DNA from: a virus
Taxonomy: Duplodnaviria > Caudoviricetes
Virus record (IMG/VR): IMGVR_UViG_3300031414_000005
Direction: 5' to 3' (one strand)
DNA length: 64,000 nucleotides
Shown: piece after piece, positions 33 to 34,769 of the stretch
How the letters are laid out: each line of letters begins with the position of its first letter
Numbering within the stretch: position 1 is the stretch's first letter
Notes under the pieces: generated by a model
Databases searched by the model: none
Seen by the model: the letters and a program-made list of their open reading frames with translations, nothing else
What the model was told of the DNA's origin: nothing
Position numbers and translations under genes: made by a program

Positions 33-842
33 ATGCCGGGTGCAGTGCTGACCTATGCAGAAAAGCTGGATGCGGCCATGCAAGATACACCCCCGACCGC
101 CGTAACCCCACCGGAAACCCCGGCAAACGGACCGGGTGTACTGACCACCCGCGAACTCACCCCGGTTAGCGAACTCACCCCCGAGATTTCTCGTTACCTG
201 GTGCGGCTGGAAGATGAAGTCACCAATATCTGCGGTGCCGTGATGAAACTCAAACTGTATGCCGCAGGTCCCGTGACTGAAGACCTCATGGGTCACTTCA
301 GTACCGAGTTCCAGGAACAACTGCGTATTGAAGCTAACGCCCCGGGGTTTGATGCCGACAGTTTTGATGTGTATGCGTTCTGCCGTAACCTGGAGGTTGC
401 TGGTATCCGGGTGGAAGCCGATATCCTGAACCGCAGCAATACCGCCTGGGTTGACAGCATGACCATGGAGAAAGTCACGGCGGGTGACACCCCTGACGAT
501 GGCGCCGCCCCGCAGTCAACAATTGAGCCCGTTATTGTGGGCGATGGCCTGTTGCAAGGTTTCCGGGTGACCGAATACCTGGAAGAGTTCGAGCAGGCGA
601 AATCGGACATCGAGAAGTCCCTGTCCCAGCGTGCCATGTTATCTGTGCGGTTTGGTATTGACTATGCGCATGATGAAGAAGGCCGGAAGATCTATTGGGA
701 ACTGGATGAGCTGAAAAACCGGTTTGATAATGCACTCAGCAATTACAACTTTGCGGTGGCCAACCCCAGCGAAGAGATCAGCGACTTCCTGGTCGAGGTC
801 TTTGCATTGCCGAAAGAAAACTTCAAGGTAACGTTGCATTGA
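33..842 (+). CDS. hypothetical acidic phage protein (269 aa)
   Basis: Long ORF with phage-like codon usage; no family recognised. The true start may be one of the downstream ATGs. Confidence 0.75.
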   Translation: MPGAVLTYAEKLDAAMQDTPPTAVTPPETPANGPGVLTTRELTPVSELTPEISRYLVRLEDEVTNICGAVMKLKLYAAGPVTEDLMGHFSTEFQEQLRIEANAPGFDADSFDVYAFCRNLEVAGIRVEADILNRSNTAWVDSMTMEKVTAGDTPDDGAAPQSTIEPVIVGDGLLQGFRVTEYLEEFEQAKSDIEKSLSQRAMLSVRFGIDYAHDEEGRKIYWELDELKNRFDNALSNYNFAVANPSEEISDFLVEVFALPKENFKVTLH

Positions 843-843
843 T

Positions 844-888
844 AATTTAGAATGCAGGTCAGTTTAAGTCTATATAACCAATATGAAT
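844..888 (+). promoter_or_regulatory. early-type phage RNAP promoter, copy 1 (AATTTAGAATGCAG-N12-CTATATAACC)
   Basis: Motif recurs at 6594 and 9862 with the same spacing; core resembles the phiKZ early promoter TATATTAC; lies upstream of a GGAG RBS and the gene at 928. Confidence 0.7.
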
Positions 889-1329: not shown

Positions 1330-1336
1330 TCCATAG

Positions 1337-1365
1337 CGGGAGGCTACCAGTAGGTATGCCTCCCG
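1337..1365 (+). terminator. stem-loop CGGGAGGC...GCCTCCCG after gene 928-1329
   Basis: 8-bp inverted repeat just after the stop codon; weak U tract. Confidence 0.5.
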
Positions 1366-1496
1366 ACTATTCACCTGATTTATTTTTTAACGAAAAAGCT
1401 AAATCAGATGCGTAGTTTATAAAAACAACAGGCGTTACCTGTGCTTATGAATTCCATCTTCTCATCGATCTACACACTCAAAAAGGTTTTATTACA

Positions 1497-1676
1497 ATGT
1501 CCACGACCAAATCACACGTTAAAGATGCCAAGAAATTTGCTAACCTGTCCCGTGCGCGTCAAGTTGAAGTCCTGATGGGCGTACGCCTGACTTCGGTTCA
1601 ACGCGACCTCATTGAATACCTGGCTGATGGAGATCACCTTGCAGCTATACACCGTTCAAATCGCCCGGTATCGTAA
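1497..1676 (+). CDS. small hypothetical protein, 59 aa (MSTTKSHVKDAKKFANLSRARQVEVLMG...), not in ORF track
   Basis: Manually translated ATG1497-TAA1676 with phage-like codon usage; 3' end overlaps the next gene. Confidence 0.6.
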   Translation: MSTTKSHVKDAKKFANLSRARQVEVLMGVRLTSVQRDLIEYLADGDHLAAIHRSNRPVS

Positions 1677-2776: not shown

Positions 2777-2860
2777 ATAAATACTTACCATCAGGTATTA
2801 TCTGACAGCTGTAGATGCTGCCGCGCAATAGTCAACATTGATTTAAGCTATCATCATTTT

Positions 2861-2897
2861 TGGATCGGGTTCGCTGTATGTCCCGATCCATCTTTTT
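2861..2897 (+). terminator. hairpin TGGATCGGG/CCCGATCCA plus U tract
   Basis: 9-bp stem followed by TCTTTTT; could terminate the 1.5-2.8 kb operon. Confidence 0.55.
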
Positions 2898-3110
2898 ATT
2901 CCGTATTTGGTTGTGTGGTAAAAGAGGTTCTCCGCCTCAAGACTTGCCTGTCGCCACCACACGACCAAACCCCTTTGGCGCTTTTGGTTCACGTACCTCA
3001 AATGCGTAAGCTTCCTTCCTGGTGGAATCTCTGTCACGCCAAAAGCGCCAACCACTATGCTGTGTGAAGTCTTTGCCGGAATGACGGCAGTCCATAATAG
3101 GAAATTTCCT

Positions 3111-3136
3111 GGAGAGCTTCGGCTCTCCTCTTTTTT
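3111..3136 (+). terminator. intrinsic terminator GGAGAGC-TTCG-GCTCTCC + U tract
   Basis: 7-bp GC stem, UUCG loop, TCTTTTTT. Confidence 0.85.
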
Positions 3137-3211
3137 GCATTTCTTTTTTTTTGTCCTCATCATGTGACTTCGGTCGGTAACACAGAGAACCAGTTGTAGG
3201 GGACATCAAAA

Positions 3212-3376
3212 ATGAAACTCAAAAGGCTGTTCTGGATCAGGTTTCACTTAGTCCTCGTGTGGGTGTTGGTGGTGCCCATGCATTGTTCGTTGGGGGCGAC
3301 CTGGTCAACCATGAAGTACAGGAGACAACAACACGAAAGGCATTTACGCTTTACTCAGGATGGCTATGAACAATAA
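3212..3376 (+). CDS. small membrane protein, 54 aa (MKLKRLFWIRFHLVLVWVLVVPMHCSLGATWST...), not in ORF track
   Basis: AGGGG RBS, ATG3212-TAA3376, basic N-terminus followed by a hydrophobic stretch. Confidence 0.55.
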   Translation: MKLKRLFWIRFHLVLVWVLVVPMHCSLGATWSTMKYRRQQHERHLRFTQDGYEQ

Positions 3377-3378
3377 CT

Positions 3379-3406
3379 AAAAAAGGGGAGAGCCGAAGCT
3401 CTCCCC
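3379..3406 (-). terminator. intrinsic (possibly bidirectional) terminator for the helicase operon
   Basis: GGGGAGAGC-TTCG-GCTCTCCCC-TTTTTT on the minus strand, between convergent genes. Confidence 0.85.
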
Positions 3407-4450: not shown

Positions 4451-6544
4451 TCACCACCCCATTGACGCAGGCAGTTTACGTTTAACGGTTTCAAGTGTCC
4501 GCAGACTGTCGTAGTCTGCTTCACGCATCAGTTCCAACTCTTCCAGGTCTTCAAACGACCAGGCCGAGCGTTTTGAGAAGTGAATCTCGTCAATGGCTTC
4601 CAACCCCATGTCTGGCATGTGACGGGCACCCATGATCATCTGGACCTGCTCACGGCTCCATTCCATGATGTCGCGGGAACGGGTCGAGATATTCGGCTTA
4701 TTACCGGTATCCAACTGCGCCAGCCAGATCCACACCGGTTGGGTTTGTCCCACACGGAACACCCGGGCAATGGTTTGTTTGATCTCGTAGTCACGGAACG
4801 GGGAGTTAATCATGAAAATGGTGTTGGCCATCAACATCGGTACCCCGGTCGAGAGTGAGTCAAAGGTGGCATTGCAGGGGTTCAGGTTCGGGTCATTACG
4901 GAACAACTCAATTAAGGCGTTGAAGTTCTTGTTGGTGTCACCGTAGATCTCAAGCGGGTTATACCCCTCTTGTTTCAAATGCACGGTCACCTGACGCAGG
5001 ACTTCCACGTAGGACGTAAAGACCAGGGTCTTGGCTTCGGAGTTGTCGATGTACTTGGCGAGGTCAAGGTGCTCCACCATATCCACATGACAGTTGATAC
5101 GTTCACGCCCCAACACGCGGCCCAGACACTCACCCCGGATTTTGAGGTCAACGTATTTCACCACCGACTTCACATCCCGGAATTGTTTCTTCTCCTCGTT
5201 GTTCAGCACCGTGTTGATTTCTTTCTCTTCAAACTCGTTGCAGTATTTCGATTGCGCCGACATGGTTGCCCCGTCAAAGCCTAAGCGGATAAACATCGCC
5301 ACATACGTCTTGTACGTTGCCAGGTCTTCCAGGGCTTTGGTTGCACCCTTCTTCTTCATCACCGCTTCATAACGATCGACACACAAATCGTAGAAACTGC
5401 GGAACTCGGCTTTGTGCAAAGTGTAATACTGGATACGCTCTGCAATAAACGCCTGCATCAAGGCACCAATCGAGTCCAGGGTATATTTGTCCCCGTTTGG
5501 CATTTTCACGGGTACCGACACAATGTCGGGATCTTTACCCAATCCCTGTAATCGCTCGATCTTGTATTTCACTCGCCCCATACGGTTGGCCAGGATGTCA
5601 TTGGCGCGTTTGGCGTTGCGTCCCCAGATCTTTTTAAAGCGCTCGGCCACACTCGGGGTAAAGAAGGGGTCGATGCACATAAAGATAGGGATGGACTCTG
5701 ACCCCAGGGCTTTGATCGGGGTACCGGACATAAAGAGGATGTCCTGGCAGTCTGAGGTCTGACAGAACTCAATCAGGTTCTGGGTCTGTTGGGCTTCCAA
5801 TCGGGTGAAGTTATGGGACTCGTCAATGACGATGTTAAACCCGTCCTTCTTGAACTTTGGCAGCATGGCTAACAACTGCTCCAGGCGTTCATAGTGGAAG
5901 ATGTGCCAACGGGCATCCGGATCCCACGGCTGGTCGTTATCGGCCACCCACACCGACTGGGTCTTGCGAAAGCCTTTGTCCATGTCCGAGAGCCAGGATT
6001 TCTGGATCACGTTCTTGGGGCACACGATCACCGTGCGTTTGTAATCCAGCAATACTGACAGGCCGTAACCAATCAATGTCTTACCGGAACCGGCTTTCCC
6101 GTCCAACAGCAACCCTTTCAGACGATGGCTGGGTTTGGCTTTCTGGTAATACTTGAAGAACCCGGTCTGGTCTTCGAACCACTGGACGTTCATTTCACGG
6201 GCCAGTTGCTGGTAATTAAAGTCCAGGCTCAGGGTGGATTCAATGCTACGCAGCCAGGTTTCCGACTCCAGCAGTTTCAGTAACTGGATCAGACTGCGGC
6301 GGTTTGTAATGATCGACGTATCATCAATCATCTTACTGATAATGTAATGCAGTTCGAGGGCAAAGAAACTGGGTAAGGTGAAACGATTACGCCCAATAGA
6401 CGTAAACATGTATTTACCGACTACCGAGGTTTCCCAAATGTGGGTGATGTCGCGCACGAACCAATCAGTGGAGATTCCGGTGACTTCAATGTTCTGTCCC
6501 CGCTCGGTCACTGTGATCATGCCAATCAGGCGTTTAAGGTTCAT
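4451..6544 (-). CDS. SF2 (SNF2/RAD2-like) helicase, probably virion-associated
   Basis: Walker A GKAGSGKT, Walker B DESH, motif III SGTP, helicase-C motifs (STG...QTIARVFRVGQ). Confidence 0.9.
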   Translation of the reverse strand: MNLKRLIGMITVTERGQNIEVTGISTDWFVRDITHIWETSVVGKYMFTSIGRNRFTLPSFFALELHYIISKMIDDTSIITNRRSLIQLLKLLESETWLRSIESTLSLDFNYQQLAREMNVQWFEDQTGFFKYYQKAKPSHRLKGLLLDGKAGSGKTLIGYGLSVLLDYKRTVIVCPKNVIQKSWLSDMDKGFRKTQSVWVADNDQPWDPDARWHIFHYERLEQLLAMLPKFKKDGFNIVIDESHNFTRLEAQQTQNLIEFCQTSDCQDILFMSGTPIKALGSESIPIFMCIDPFFTPSVAERFKKIWGRNAKRANDILANRMGRVKYKIERLQGLGKDPDIVSVPVKMPNGDKYTLDSIGALMQAFIAERIQYYTLHKAEFRSFYDLCVDRYEAVMKKKGATKALEDLATYKTYVAMFIRLGFDGATMSAQSKYCNEFEEKEINTVLNNEEKKQFRDVKSVVKYVDLKIRGECLGRVLGRERINCHVDMVEHLDLAKYIDNSEAKTLVFTSYVEVLRQVTVHLKQEGYNPLEIYGDTNKNFNALIELFRNDPNLNPCNATFDSLSTGVPMLMANTIFMINSPFRDYEIKQTIARVFRVGQTQPVWIWLAQLDTGNKPNISTRSRDIMEWSREQVQMIMGARHMPDMGLEAIDEIHFSKRSAWSFEDLEELELMREADYDSLRTLETVKRKLPASMGW

Positions 6545-6593: not shown

Positions 6594-6636
6594 AATTAGA
6601 TTGCAGAAGCCGCAAAACCTATATCACCATGATGAC
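6594..6636 (+). promoter_or_regulatory. early-type promoter, copy 2 (AATTAGATTGCAG-N12-CTATATCACC)
   Basis: Same bipartite motif and spacing as copy 1; heads the 6.7-8.4 kb gene block. Confidence 0.7.
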
Positions 6637-9861: not shown

Positions 9862-9905
9862 AATTTAGATTGCAGTGTGGTTGAGGTCTATATTACCCAT
9901 GTGAA
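9862..9905 (+). promoter_or_regulatory. early-type promoter, copy 3 (AATTTAGATTGCAG-N12-CTATATTACC)
   Basis: Contains an exact TATATTAC; same 12-nt spacer as copies 1 and 2. Confidence 0.75.
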
Positions 9906-33155: not shown

Positions 33156-34769
33156 ATGAAACCCCTAAATATAACAATTCTGAATCCCAAAACCGTACCC
33201 TGGCAGACCATGCGGCCTGTTACGGTCACTGACATCTTCGATGGGATCACCAATAACCTTCATGATGAGGGGTTATACTCCATCCCCATCTTTGGTCGGG
33301 TCGGTTCTGAAGAACGCGATGAACGCTTTTCCTACATTGATGTGGGACTCAACATTATTCACCCCCAGATCTTTGACGCCCTGTGTTCTCTGAAGCAGCT
33401 TTATCGCGGCATCATGAGTGGCAAATTGTTTGCGACCTGGGACGACAATGTAAAAGATTTCATAAAATCCGATGCGTTAGTGGGACAGACCGGTTTCAGC
33501 TTTTTTCTGAAGCACTGGCGTGACATTGAATTCCCTGCTAACAAGTCCAGCAAGCGTGATGACAAAATCCGGGTGGTGGAGAAATTCAAAGGGATTGCCA
33601 TGACCCGCCGGGTATTAATCCTGCCGGCAGGGTTGCGTGAAGTGCAGATCGATGAAGACGGCCGGACGATTGAAACCGAAGTCAACCCGCTGTACCGTCG
33701 CATGCTGTCAATTGCCAAGACCGTGGTCTTGACACAAGGGGTGGATAACAACCCGATGTACGACAACATCCGCTGGTCATTGCAGAACTCCTTTATGGAG
33801 ATCTATAACTTCTTCGAGAACTTCCTGAAAGGCAAGCGCGGTTTCCTGCAACAGAAATACGGTCGCCGTGCGGTGTTCAACGCCACCGCCAACGTGATCA
33901 CGGCAGCCCCCATCACCAACCGTGACTTACGCTCACCCGCCTATCCCGATATCAACACCACGTTGGTGGGGTTACGTCAGTATATGAAAGTGATGTTCCA
34001 CTTCTTCTTTCATAAGCTGAGTCAGGGTTACCTGGGGGAAGTGTTTACCAAAGGCTCATTGACCGCCCGGTTGGTTGACCGTGAGACGCTGCGTTACGAG
34101 CACGTTGAGGTGGACTTACCGACCATTGACAAGTGGACGTCCGAGGAAGGGATCAACAAACTGATCAACGGCTATAACGACACCGGGGTGCGTAATAAGC
34201 CAATAATCATAAAAGGTTACTATCTTGGTCTTATCTATGTTGACCGGAAATACTTTAAGATTTTCGGTGACATCAATGAGTTACCGAGTTACCTAGATAA
34301 AAAGAACGTCCGTCCTATCACCTACACCGAGCTGTTCTATTTGGCCGGGTTTGATGTGTGGAACAACCGCTTTGTGCAGAACACCCGTTACCCGATTACC
34401 GGGATGGGGTCGATCTATCCGGCCCGTCCGTTTGTCAAGACCACCGTCAACGACTCGATCAAAGAGATGTTGGATGAGGACTGGCAGCGCACCGGACGGT
34501 TAGCCACTGCGTTTCCGGACAATGCATTGGATGCCCAGTTCTTTGATGCCATGGCGGTACACCCCACCCGTCTCGGCCTGGCTGGCGGTGACTACGACGG
34601 TGACCGTATGAGTTGTAACGGGATTCAATCGGATGAAGCGATGCGCGAGTGTGCGGATTCGTTAGCCCGCCGTGAAACCTATATCTCAGGTACCGGTGAT
34701 TTCTATATTGATGTGACCACGGACACATTGGATTTTGTCATGCATGCCATGACCCATATCTCTCAATAA
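33156..34769 (+). CDS. rpoC: virion RNA polymerase beta' subunit, catalytic fragment (phiKZ gp180-like)
   Basis: GGDYDGDRM catalytic DxDGD motif; KGKRGFLQQKYGRR corresponds to KGKQGRFRQNLLGKR. Confidence 0.95.
   Translation: MKPLNITILNPKTVPWQTMRPVTVTDIFDGITNNLHDEGLYSIPIFGRVGSEERDERFSYIDVGLNIIHPQIFDALCSLKQLYRGIMSGKLFATWDDNVKDFIKSDALVGQTGFSFFLKHWRDIEFPANKSSKRDDKIRVVEKFKGIAMTRRVLILPAGLREVQIDEDGRTIETEVNPLYRRMLSIAKTVVLTQGVDNNPMYDNIRWSLQNSFMEIYNFFENFLKGKRGFLQQKYGRRAVFNATANVITAAPITNRDLRSPAYPDINTTLVGLRQYMKVMFHFFFHKLSQGYLGEVFTKGSLTARLVDRETLRYEHVEVDLPTIDKWTSEEGINKLINGYNDTGVRNKPIIIKGYYLGLIYVDRKYFKIFGDINELPSYLDKKNVRPITYTELFYLAGFDVWNNRFVQNTRYPITGMGSIYPARPFVKTTVNDSIKEMLDEDWQRTGRLATAFPDNALDAQFFDAMAVHPTRLGLAGGDYDGDRMSCNGIQSDEAMRECADSLARRETYISGTGDFYIDVTTDTLDFVMHAMTHISQ

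What the first reader, a model, noticed from the sequence alone, without database searches (positions are those of the whole stretch)
2795..3137. Candidate novel structured ncRNA with two tandem three-way-junction-like domains
Seen: about 340 nt with no credible ORF in an otherwise fully coding genome, and densely paired. Domain A is a 13-bp stem, TTGGTTGTGTGGT (2907-2919) with ACCACACGACCAA (2956-2968, one G-U), closing two small hairpins (GAGG/CCTC, GAC/GTC). After a 6-nt linker, domain B is a perfect 13-bp stem, TTGGCGCTTTTGG (2975-2987) with CCAAAAGCGCCAA (3039-3051), also closing two small hairpins (ACGTA/TGCGT, TTCC/GGAA). Both closing stems begin TTGG and end CCAA despite unrelated internal sequence. 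Further hairpins lie upstream (TCAG/CTGA, CAGC/GCTG, 2861-2890) and downstream (TGCCG/CGGCA 3074-3089; palindrome AGGAAATTTCCT 3099-3110), followed by a UUCG terminator. AAGACTT (2939) could alternatively pair with AAGTCTT (3067), suggesting a switch or tertiary contact. G-U pairs argue for RNA rather than DNA structure. It does not resemble tRNA, tmRNA or hammerhead motifs by eye. Inference: an undescribed jumbo-phage sRNA, such as a scaffold or decoy for host defence proteins, a packaging or export RNA, or a ribozyme.
Basis: partly seen in the sequence, partly recalled or inferred. Interest (0 to 1): 0.78.

Follow-up and report, generated by a model that had tools for sequence, protein, structure and literature searches.

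The report
Two-domain structured small RNA, jumbo phage
A 230-base stretch between genes of a giant bacterial virus encodes a folded RNA whose two long stems are kept by matching mutations in related viruses; it belongs to no catalogued RNA family, is built like the C4 regulatory RNA of phage P1, and its function is still unknown.

Summary
Window 2900-3136 (+) folds far better than shuffles: z = -6.0 on the + strand and -3.65 on the - strand. It contains two adjacent 14-bp stems, each closing two hairpins, and ends in a UUCG intrinsic terminator.

Six related metagenomic contigs carry the locus. One of them (L018) is only 58-71% identical across the two domains, yet keeps every helix. Of 36 pairs tested, 99.5% of cells stay paired and 11 pairs changed on both sides (0 of 500 shuffles reach this). 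Several G-U pairs work only on the + strand. The 106-aa ORF on the minus strand is broken in 5 of the 6 relatives.

This is therefore a real + strand RNA under selection for structure. Rfam gives no hit (tRNA, C4, pRNA, riboswitches all tested). There is no second copy in the genome, and no homologue in five cultured jumbo phages or in IMG/VR.

Each domain has the layout of P1 C4 antisense RNA: U(-1), long closing stem, two hairpins, a single-stranded junction (CUGUCAC against C4's CUGUCAA), then N-CC. I infer two RNase-P-processed, C4-like base-pairing RNAs at about 0.4 confidence. The proposed AAGACUU/AAGUCUU switch is not supported.

The parts
2861..2900 (+). T1: intrinsic terminator of the upstream early operon (stem GGAUCGGG/CCCGAUCC, then AUCUUUUUAUU)
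   Evidence: The hairpin appears in the MFE and alifold structures. L018 has a different stem sequence (CCCGGUUAG/CUAGCCGGG) but keeps a hairpin plus U-run. L005 shows a GC>GU change.
2906..2969 (+). Domain A: 14-bp closing stem (2906-2919/2956-2969), hairpin 1 (2924-2928/2934-2938, conserved loop UCUCC within GGUUCUCCGCC) and the conserved segment GACUUGCCUGUCGCC (possible 3-bp hairpin 2941-2943/2950-2952)
   Evidence: The stem stays 100% paired in 7 sequences, and 4 pairs changed on both sides. Hairpin 1 has 1 double change. CM R2 scores L018 at 76 bits.
2970..2974 (+). C-rich linker, also the 3' tail of domain A (CCCCU; A2969-C2970-C2971 gives an N-CC end)
   Evidence: Conserved in all 7 sequences. 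Its role as an RNase P 'RCC' determinant is inferred.
2975..3054 (+). Domain B: 14-bp closing stem (2975-2988/3038-3051), hairpin 1 (2991-2995/3003-3007, loop CCUCAAA), hairpin 2 (3009-3030, conserved UCCUGGUGGAA), junction strand CUGUCAC (3031-3037) and 3' A-CCA (3051-3054)
   Evidence: The stem has 6 pairs changed on both sides and is 98.8% paired. The only break is the terminal 2975-3051 pair in L018. L018 folds on its own into the same three-way junction. CM R1 scores L018 at 33.6 bits, E = 1.3e-5. In L018 the tail is U-CCU, so only N-CC is conserved.
3055..3110 (+). 3' region: conserved AUGCUGUGUG.AGUCUU, hairpin 3073-3090 and hairpin 3099-3110 (AGGA/UCCU)
   Evidence: Hairpin 3073-3090 has a different stem in L018 (UUACCGU/GCGGUAA) but still forms. 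The 3099-3110 hairpin stem is invariant (L018 has one loop change, 3104 A>U), so it is neither supported nor refuted.
3111..3136 (+). T2: intrinsic terminator GGAGAGC-UUCG-GCUCUCC plus UCUUUUUUG; predicted 3' end of the RNA
   Evidence: It is 100% identical in all 7 sequences. The same terminator sequence recurs at 3 or more other places in the genome.
3137..3211 (+). Conserved spacer and 5' UTR of the small ORF; UGUCCUC (3152-3158) can pair with GGGGACA (3198-3204), which covers the Shine-Dalgarno sequence
   Evidence: The first 34 nt (3137-3170) match L018 except for a 1-nt T-run length difference. The pairing survives in L018 as a U-G wobble. Any function is inferred.
3212..3376 (+). ORF54: small protein with one hydrophobic helix, directly downstream of the RNA
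   Evidence: The 54-codon frame is intact in all 7 sequences. L018 differs at 15 synonymous and 13 non-synonymous codons. No PHROG hit.
3385..3406 (.). T3: bidirectional terminator between ORF54 and the convergent genes
2843..3163 (-). Spurious 106-aa ORF antisense to the RNA
   Evidence: The frame is broken by 1-nt indels and stops in L005-L008 and L018, and frameshifted at 2939 with a premature stop in L019. No PHROG hit.

Best explanation
Shown: window about 2900-3136 (+) encodes a structured RNA of about 235 nt under purifying selection for its fold. It has two adjacent three-way-junction domains (A, 2906-2969; B, 2975-3051), two or three further hairpins and an intrinsic terminator (T2). 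It sits at the 3' end of an early accessory operon, behind that operon's own terminator (T1), and just upstream of a conserved 54-codon membrane-protein ORF. Inferred mechanism: each domain is a tRNA-acceptor-like module built like the C4 antisense RNA of phage P1. The shared parts are an unpaired or weakly paired U at -1, a long closing helix, two hairpins, a single-stranded junction strand, a discriminator-like base and then CC. On this reading host RNase P cuts at the 5' side of each closing helix, near U2907 and U2976. This releases two stable RNAs of about 65 and 78 nt from read-through or locally started transcripts. These RNAs then act by short base-pairing through the parts that are conserved in sequence while the stems drift. 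Those parts are the CU-rich loops UUCUCCG and CCUCAAA, the loop UCCUGGUGG and the junction strand CUGUCAC. Likely targets are purine-rich sites such as ribosome-binding sites, with the neighbouring ORF54 as first candidate. My confidence that this is a real structured RNA is about 0.9. My confidence in the C4-like processing and base-pairing mechanism is about 0.4.
For: Fold: z = -6.04 on + against -3.65 on -, the best of the large gaps tested in the genome. Covariation: on a MAFFT alignment of 7 sequences that is blind to structure, 36 pairs are 99.5% paired, 11 pairs changed on both sides (shuffle mean 2.8, 0 of 500 reach it), and registers slid by 1-3 columns give 0-2. With the five closest sequences alone there are 3 double changes, all in L008; position-only permutation gives P = 3.4e-4. 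L018 folds alone into the same architecture. Strand: changes such as U-A>U-G (2919-2956, 2985-3041) and G-C>G-U (2986-3040, 2868-2883) pair only on the + strand. Loops and junctions are conserved while stems change. Not coding: the antisense ORF is broken in relatives. C4 likeness was checked against the real P1 sequence. RF01695 aligns P1 C4 as a 17-bp closing stem, two hairpins, the 7-nt junction CUGUCAA and a 3' A-CC, with the mature 5' end just after a U that faces the A. The P1 record annotates UUGACAG (the complement of that junction) as C4 target sites a1 and a2, and GUUAGUG (the complement of the hairpin-2 loop) as b1 and b2. A small ORF, icd, follows. Domain B reads U|UGGCG...CGCCA|A|CC with junction CUGUCAC; domain A reads U|UUGG...CCAA|A|CC; N-CC is kept in all 7 sequences. 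UGACAG, the complement of CUGUCA, lies upstream at 2803-2808 and is conserved in L018. C4 processing by RNase P and the roles of its loops are taken from PMC5320573 and PMC11143913.
Against: No promoter was found between T1 and domain A. The Rfam C4 model does not score the locus at E <= 10, and my models score P1 C4 at only 5.5-6.2 bits. The likeness is therefore architectural and could be convergent or coincidental. The terminal CCA of domain B is not conserved (U-CCU in L018), and +1 would be U rather than the GG seen in C4. No convincing one-site or two-site target was found in the phage genome. Complementarity to the ORF54 leader is limited to 5-7 nt stretches at chance level. All covariation comes from one narrow lineage of 7 sequences, with essentially two informative relatives (L008 and L018).
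Confidence: 0.4

Rival explanations
1. Cis-acting leader or attenuator. The structured region is a sensor (for a ligand, protein or RNA) whose state decides whether transcription stops at T2 or reads through into ORF54. It would work like a tandem-aptamer riboswitch or a protein-dependent antiterminator.
For: The order is structured domains, then intrinsic terminator T2, then 75 nt, then a conserved small ORF on the same strand. T2 and the 34 nt after it match L018 apart from a 1-nt T-run length difference. The domain A hairpin-1 loop UUCUCC could compete with the 3' arm of T2 for GGAGAG (seen directly in the sequence). Two tandem three-way junctions recall the glycine riboswitch (from memory).
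Against: No riboswitch, T-box or leader family scores. The closing stems are 14 bp, which is very stable and unlike the short switchable P1 stems of riboswitches. T2 is a generic terminator reused elsewhere in the genome, so its conservation is not specific to this locus. The ORF54 ribosome-binding site has its own local sequestering stem.
Confidence: 0.2
2. Protein-binding RNA. It would be a scaffold, sponge or decoy, for example a tRNA-acceptor mimic that titrates a host tRNA-targeting defence nuclease, RNase P or the CCA-adding enzyme, or an RNA partner of a phage protein.
For: Conserved loop and junction sequences on covarying stems are typical of protein-recognised RNAs. The ends are acceptor-like and N-CC is conserved. 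The phage encodes no tRNA of its own. The neighbouring genes look like accessory or anti-defence genes, for example a weak gp49/66-family hit. PMC13282480 notes phiKZ ncRNAs of unknown role.
Against: No partner is identified. The loops do not match known protein-binding motifs: no GGA motif for CsrA and no T-loop or anticodon-loop consensus (position 33 is C). ARAGORN and the tRNA model reject both domains.
Confidence: 0.2
3. Self-cleaving ribozyme or other catalytic RNA built on a three-way junction.
For: Both domains are three-way junctions.
Against: No hammerhead, twister, pistol, hatchet or other ribozyme model scores at E <= 10. The hammerhead core (CUGANGA...GAAA) is absent from the junctions.
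Confidence: 0.03
4. A DNA-level element (cruciform or protein-binding inverted repeats such as an origin or packaging site), or simply a cluster of terminator hairpins, or a protein-coding gene on the minus strand.
For: Two 13-bp inverted repeats also exist as DNA. The minus strand folds with z = -3.65. A 106-aa ORF lies on the minus strand.
Against: Many conserved or newly arisen pairs are G-U on the + strand, which would be A-C mismatches in DNA or in minus-strand RNA. The stems change in sequence while pairing is kept, and the loops are conserved. This is the reverse of what a sequence-specific DNA site would show. The ORF is broken in relatives. T1 and T2 explain only two of the roughly nine helices.
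Confidence: 0.04

Closest known systems
C4 antisense RNA of phages P1/P7 (Rfam RF01695, clan CL00128)
   Same: It is phage-encoded and about 77 nt (domain B is about 78 nt from U2976 to C3053). It has a long closing helix formed by the 5' and 3' ends, two internal hairpins and a 7-nt single-stranded junction before the 3' strand (P1 CUGUCAA; domain B CUGUCAC). A U at -1 faces an A that is followed by CC. The terminal pairs match the consensus (uGGcg/cgCCa against UGGCG/CGCCA). It lies upstream of a small ORF on the same strand (icd in P1, ORF54 here). A copy of the junction's complement lies upstream (a1 UUGACAG in P1; UGACAG at 2803-2808 here).
   Different: The RF01695 model gives no score at E <= 10. 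The closing stem is 14 bp, not 17 bp with a bulge. Hairpin 1 has a 7-nt loop, not a UUCG tetraloop. 2 nt (UC) separate the stem from hairpin 1. Two unlike modules sit in tandem and are followed by more hairpins and a terminator. No a2/b2-type target pair lies next to the downstream ORF. The host phage is a virulent-type jumbo phage, not a temperate plasmid prophage with an immunity circuit.
tRNA and tRNA-like RNase P substrates (acceptor/T-stem minihelices, polycistronic tRNA precursors)
   Same: Each domain has a 12-13-bp helix from the presumed +1 position, a discriminator-like base plus CC, tRNA-like size (65-78 nt) and a tandem arrangement with a short linker. Hairpin 1 of domain B has a 5-bp stem and a 7-nt loop.
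   Different: There is no cloverleaf, T-loop or D-arm. Both strands of the closing helix are continuous. Position 33 of the anticodon-like loop is C, and the CCA is not conserved. ARAGORN and RF00005 find nothing.
phi29 packaging RNA (pRNA, RF00044)
   Same: It is a phage-encoded RNA whose core is a three-way junction closed by the paired 5' and 3' ends.
   Different: No model match. This phage is of a terminase-packaging phiKZ-like type, and I found no complementary inter-molecular loop pair (resemblance recalled from memory, not tested further).
sRNAs reported in phiKZ and 201phi2-1 by ONT-cappable-seq (PMC11512511, PMC10914365)
   Same: They are small non-coding RNAs in nucleus-forming jumbo phages, with function unknown.
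   Different: Those are mostly short products of premature termination in 5' UTRs, such as the one upstream of the tail gene gp182/gp277. They are not intergenic tandem three-way junctions. Model R3 finds nothing in five cultured relatives.

Membership tests
C4 antisense RNA (RF01695) | Scores above the Rfam gathering threshold (45 bits) with the family covariance model | tested here: not met
   No hit at E <= 10 in the locus or in the whole genome. The same model scores P1 C4 at 68.8 bits.
C4 antisense RNA (RF01695) | Architecture: closing stem of the 5' and 3' ends, two hairpins, single-stranded junction before the 3' strand, 3' A-CC | tested here: met
   Both domains have it, supported by covariation; compared with the Rfam alignment of P1 C4.
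C4 antisense RNA (RF01695) | 5' end made by RNase P; mature RNA of about 77 nt | not testable with these tools
   No reads were available. Needs an in vitro RNase P assay or 5' end mapping.
C4 antisense RNA (RF01695) | Junction (a') and loop (b') complementary to paired target sites at the ribosome-binding site of a downstream gene | tested here: not met
   No paired sites occur near ORF54 or anywhere else in the genome. Only a single upstream UGACAG at 2803-2808 was found.
tRNA (RF00005) / tRNA-like | Cloverleaf recognised by ARAGORN or by the tRNA covariance model | tested here: not met
   ARAGORN finds 0 genes in the window and in the genome; relaxed settings give only noise in other registers. 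RF00005 gives no hit at E <= 10.
tRNA (RF00005) / tRNA-like | Conserved 3' CCA after a discriminator base | tested here: not met
   Domain B has A-CCA in 6 sequences but U-CCU in L018. Domain A has A-CCC. Only N-CC is conserved.
Riboswitch or attenuator leaders (e.g. tandem glycine, RF00504) | Match to a family model, and mutually exclusive terminator and antiterminator pairings | tested here: not met
   No Rfam hit. The only alternative pairing proposed is not kept in the variants.
Self-cleaving ribozymes (hammerhead and others) | Conserved catalytic core, or a match to a family model | tested here: not met
   No hit at E <= 10. The junction strands are AAAA/AA/GCC in domain A and UC/A/CUGUCAC in domain B.
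Structured functional RNA (generic) | Compensatory base changes that keep helices, above controls | tested here: met
   11 of 36 pairs changed on both sides; 0 of 500 shuffles reach this; slid registers give 0-2.

The most novel reading that the evidence does not exclude
The two modules are tRNA-acceptor mimics made by a tRNA-less, nucleus-forming jumbo phage. They would act as decoys or competitive substrates for host enzymes that recognise the acceptor end, such as RNase P, the CCA-adding enzyme or tRNA-targeting defence nucleases. That would be a new RNA-based counter-defence or host-takeover device, not an antisense regulator.
Probability: 0.1. Interest if true: 0.85.

Novelty: new variant of a known kind. 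Interest (0 to 1): 0.6.

Why it matters
Non-coding RNAs of nucleus-forming jumbo phages are almost unexplored, and a 2026 review only notes that phiKZ makes some (PMC13282480). This locus is a candidate whose fold is backed by covariation rather than by prediction alone. It belongs to no Rfam family, and its anatomy points to a concrete bench test: RNase P cleavage at two predicted sites. If the C4-like reading holds, a regulatory RNA design known from temperate P1-type phages would also operate in tandem form in a lytic-type giant phage. There it sits next to a small membrane protein in an early accessory block. If the reading fails, the RNA remains a well-defined orphan structured RNA worth probing for protein partners.

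Tried and rejected
1. Coding rival: the minus-strand 106-aa ORF has no PHROG hit and is frameshifted or stopped in relatives. Rejected.
2. Rfam in permissive E-value mode, over 1 kb and over 246 nt: only sub-threshold noise (TarB 18 bits on the terminator, and similar).
3. tRNA or tmRNA: ARAGORN at default and relaxed settings, plus RF00005. Rejected.
4. Second copies: CMs R1 and R2 hit only their own locus in the genome, and neither hits the other domain. A and B are therefore not detectably homologous, although both carry a CUGUC motif before the 3' strand.
5. Relatives:
- DNA search of INPHARED found nothing.
- Single-protein scans of IMG/VR with four neighbouring genes found nothing.
- The exact stem-B pattern found nothing in IMG/VR.
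- Two metagenome scans found nothing.
- Loop-motif patterns in IMG/VR gave three chance hits with no CM score.
- Contigs of the next-nearest helicases (41-43% identical) lack synteny and CM hits.
- Five cultured jumbo phages scanned with R3 gave a best E of 0.6.
- The relatives that worked came from exact-protein look-ups of the helicase cluster and of the upstream 97-aa gene.
6. Targets: the longest complementary match is a 14-mer on the antisense strand of a gene, at chance level. Duplex-energy scans of both strands gave no outlier. Motif-pair scans found no C4-style two-site target.
7. Promoter: no sigma-70-like site, and no copy of the phage's CTATAT[ACT]ACC early-promoter core between 870 and 6619.
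10. The scan flagged this same stretch twice before in other windows of the same genome.
Full report
WHAT IS THERE. The window is the reverse strand of bases 127838-191837 of a 232,948-bp virus record with direct terminal repeats. Its SNF2/DEAD helicase (window 4451-6544, minus strand) is about 37-41% identical to helicases of phiKZ-like jumbo phages of Erwinia, Proteus, Salmonella, Escherichia (Goslar), Pseudomonas and Burkholderia. The next nearest helicase among 5.8 billion proteins is only 43% identical. The phage is therefore a jumbo phage of an isolated lineage.

The finding lies between a 97-codon gene (2483-2776, +) and a 54-codon ORF (3212-3376, +).

IS IT MORE THAN CHANCE. RNAfold of 2795-3137 gives -116.7 kcal/mol against -86.9 +/- 4.9 for dinucleotide shuffles. 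That is z = -6.04 with 0 of 100 shuffles as good; the minus strand reaches only z = -3.65. Both long stems are in the minimum-energy and centroid structures. Among the eight other non-coding gaps of at least 250 nt that a crude gene call leaves in the genome, none falls below about z = -3.1. The 2900-3136 core scored -4.6 in the same test. A genome-wide scan for stems of at least 12 bp enclosing 15-130 nt finds 16-27 per strand. The two 14-bp stems here are the only adjacent pair.

CODING RIVAL. A 106-aa ATG ORF on the minus strand (2843-3163) covers the region. It starts in the terminator's A-run and has no PHROG match. It is destroyed by 1-nt indels and stops in L005-L008 and L018, and by a 1-nt deletion at 2939 in L019. 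It is not a gene.

RELATIVES AND COVARIATION. Direct DNA and single-protein searches found nothing. Exact-sequence look-ups of the 90%-identity cluster of the helicase gave four Logan contigs (L005-L008). A protein search with the upstream 97-aa gene gave two more contigs. L019 is a JGI contig whose 97-aa protein is 91% identical. L018 is a Logan contig whose protein is 77% identical.

L008 differs from the window by 11.5% over 11 kb but by only 4.5-5% across the RNA. Of its 11 substitutions in 2900-3060, six form three exact partner pairs: 2911/2964 U-A>C-G, 2979/3047 C-G>U-A and 2982/3044 U-A>C-G. Position-only permutation gives P = 3.4e-4.

L018 is much more divergent: domain A is 71% identical and domain B 58%. 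Every helix survives even so. Stem A gains three more double changes (2914/2961, 2915/2960, 2916/2959). Stem B changes at eight of its 14 pairs and loses only the terminal 2975-3051 pair. Hairpin 1 of domain A swaps G-C/A-U for A-U/G-C around an unchanged loop. Hairpins B1, B2 and 3073-3090 and the upstream terminator T1 all re-form from different sequences.

On the MAFFT alignment A4, which was made without reference to structure, the four helices that align without ambiguity contain 36 pairs. These are 99.5% paired, and 11 of them changed on both sides. The shuffle mean is 2.8, and 0 of 500 shuffles reach 11. Registers slid by 1-3 columns give 0-2 double changes and 36-46% pairing.

Several changes create or remove G-U pairs that exist only on the + strand: 2919-2956, 2912-2963, 2985-3041, 2986-3040, 2868-2883 and 2924-2938. 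The selected molecule is therefore the + strand RNA, not DNA and not the antisense transcript.

The unpaired parts are conserved in sequence while the stems drift. They are GGUUCUCCGCC, GACUUGCCUGUCGCC, ACCUCAAAUG, UCCUGGUGGAA, CUGUCACG and AUGCUGUGUG.AGUCUU. This is the signature of a functional structured RNA. One caveat applies: all the evidence comes from one narrow lineage, with two informative relatives.

BOUNDARIES AND CONTEXT. The hairpin at 2861-2890 plus AUCUUUUUAUU is an intrinsic terminator (T1) for the upstream operon. The spacer 2777-2860 diverges freely in L018 (62% identity, with indels). The RNA body therefore starts near 2900, not at 2795.

The 3' end is the strong terminator T2 (3111-3136), a sequence that the genome reuses at other sites. 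It occurs at about 14 intergenic sites on this strand. The nearest copies are at 870 and 6619, and none lies directly upstream of the RNA. No sigma-70-like site is present either. How the RNA is transcribed is therefore open: by read-through of T1 from the early operon, or from an unrecognised promoter.

Downstream, ORF54 is intact in all seven sequences, with 15 synonymous and 13 non-synonymous codon differences in L018. It is probably a real small membrane protein. Its Shine-Dalgarno sequence (GGGGA) can be sequestered by UGUCCUC at 3152-3158, a pairing that L018 keeps.

WHAT IT IS NOT. No Rfam family scores at E <= 10 apart from noise. Dedicated whole-genome searches with the tRNA and C4 models found nothing. 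ARAGORN finds no tRNA or tmRNA in the genome, and relaxed settings give only hits in other registers.

Models of domain B (R1) and domain A (R2) find no second copy in the genome and do not find each other. A two-domain model that includes L018 (R3) finds nothing in Proteus phage 10, Goslar, SA002, pEa_SNUABM_37 or FLC9. Contigs carrying the next-nearest helicases lack both synteny and hits. Loop-motif patterns found only chance matches in IMG/VR.

WHAT IT RESEMBLES. Another first-stage note suggested that domain B is a tRNA mimic ending in A-CCA. The CCA is not conserved (U-CCU in L018), and no tRNA model fits. The idea nevertheless led me to the RNase P substrates of phages.

I fetched the real C4 RNA of P1 (AF234172 48343-48419). 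Rfam aligns it as a 17-bp closing stem, a 5-bp hairpin, a second 5-bp hairpin with a 12-nt loop, the 7-nt junction CUGUCAA, the 3' strand and then A-CC. The annotated mature 5' end lies directly after a U that faces that A. The P1 record annotates UUGACAG (the complement of the junction) and GUUAGUG (the complement of the hairpin-2 loop) as the a1/a2 and b1/b2 target sites. Site b2 sits at the ribosome-binding site of the small gene icd. PMC5320573 and PMC11143913 state that C4 is cut from a longer transcript by RNase P to 77 +/- 1 nt and acts through these two elements.

Both domains here have the same ground plan. Domain B reads U|UGGCG...[hairpin][hairpin] CUGUCAC ...CGCCA|A|CC and is 78 nt from U2976 to C3053. 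Domain A reads U|UUGG...[hairpin] GACUUGCCUGUCGCC ...CCAA|A|CC. The N-CC end is kept in all seven sequences. This also explains why both stems 'begin TTGG and end CCAA'.

UGACAG, the complement of the domain B junction, lies upstream at 2803-2808 and is conserved in L018, much as a1 lies upstream of c4. A small ORF follows, as icd does in P1.

The likeness is architectural only. RF01695 does not score, and my models give P1 C4 just 5.5-6.2 bits. I found no a2/b2-like target pair.

MOST LIKELY MECHANISM. Shown: this is a + strand RNA whose fold is under selection, bounded by two terminators, with conserved loops.

Inferred, at about 0.4: RNase P cuts at the base of each closing helix and releases two stable modules. 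These modules then pair through the conserved CU-rich loops and the CUGUC junction with purine-rich sites such as ribosome-binding sites. ORF54 is the first candidate target.

The rivals are a cis-acting attenuator of ORF54 (0.2), a protein-binding scaffold or acceptor-mimic decoy (0.2), a ribozyme (0.03), and a DNA element or trivial hairpin cluster (0.04).

VERDICT. The RNA is new to Rfam and confined to a small lineage, and it is best described as a tandem, divergent variant of the C4-type design. Interest is moderate to high because the fold is well supported and the mechanism can be tested directly.

Noticed in passing
window 3212-3376 (+), with leader 3137-3211: A conserved 54-codon ORF encodes a small protein with one hydrophobic helix (MKLKRLFWIRFHLVLVWVLVVP...). 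It is intact in all 7 relatives, and its Shine-Dalgarno sequence GGGGA can pair with UGUCCUC at 3152-3158. It has no PHROG match. The 34 nt after terminator T2 match the divergent L018 apart from a 1-nt T-run length difference, which is unexplained.
   Followed up: partly
window 3111-3128, 3385-3406; genome G000:C1:40853-40877 and 110915-110941: The same terminator sequence GGAGAGC-UUCG-GCUCUCC recurs at several loci. Purine-rich terminator arms (GGAGAG, GGAGGCC) dominate the k-mers enriched in intergenic regions of this phage.
   Followed up: partly
window 848-879, 6597-6628, 9866-9897, plus about 11 more intergenic sites: The motif TAGA[AT]TGCAG-N12-CTATAT[ACT]ACC, or its core alone, occurs almost only in intergenic regions on one strand. 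It is probably the phage's early (virion RNA polymerase) promoter, similar to the phiKZ TATATTAC element.
   Followed up: partly
window 1330-1611: A 282-nt gap inside the same early operon folds moderately better than shuffles on both strands (z about -3). It was not examined further.
   Followed up: no
window 33770-34458: This 689 nt stretch is the largest non-coding gap in the genome by a crude gene call. Its folding z-scores are only -0.3 to -1.8, and its content is unexplained.
   Followed up: no
L014:17714-19177 and L017:18970-20752: In two distant relatives the thymidylate synthase gene is preceded by or split by more than 500 nt of non-coding DNA. This suggests an intron, as reported for other jumbo phages.
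   Followed up: no
window 33-842 (+) and relatives L005, L006, L008, L018: The first gene of the early block carries a weak Phage_gp49_66 (PF13876) domain, and gene 1612-2004 carries a DUF488-N3a hit. The block looks like an accessory or anti-defence cassette.
   Followed up: no
   Followed up: no
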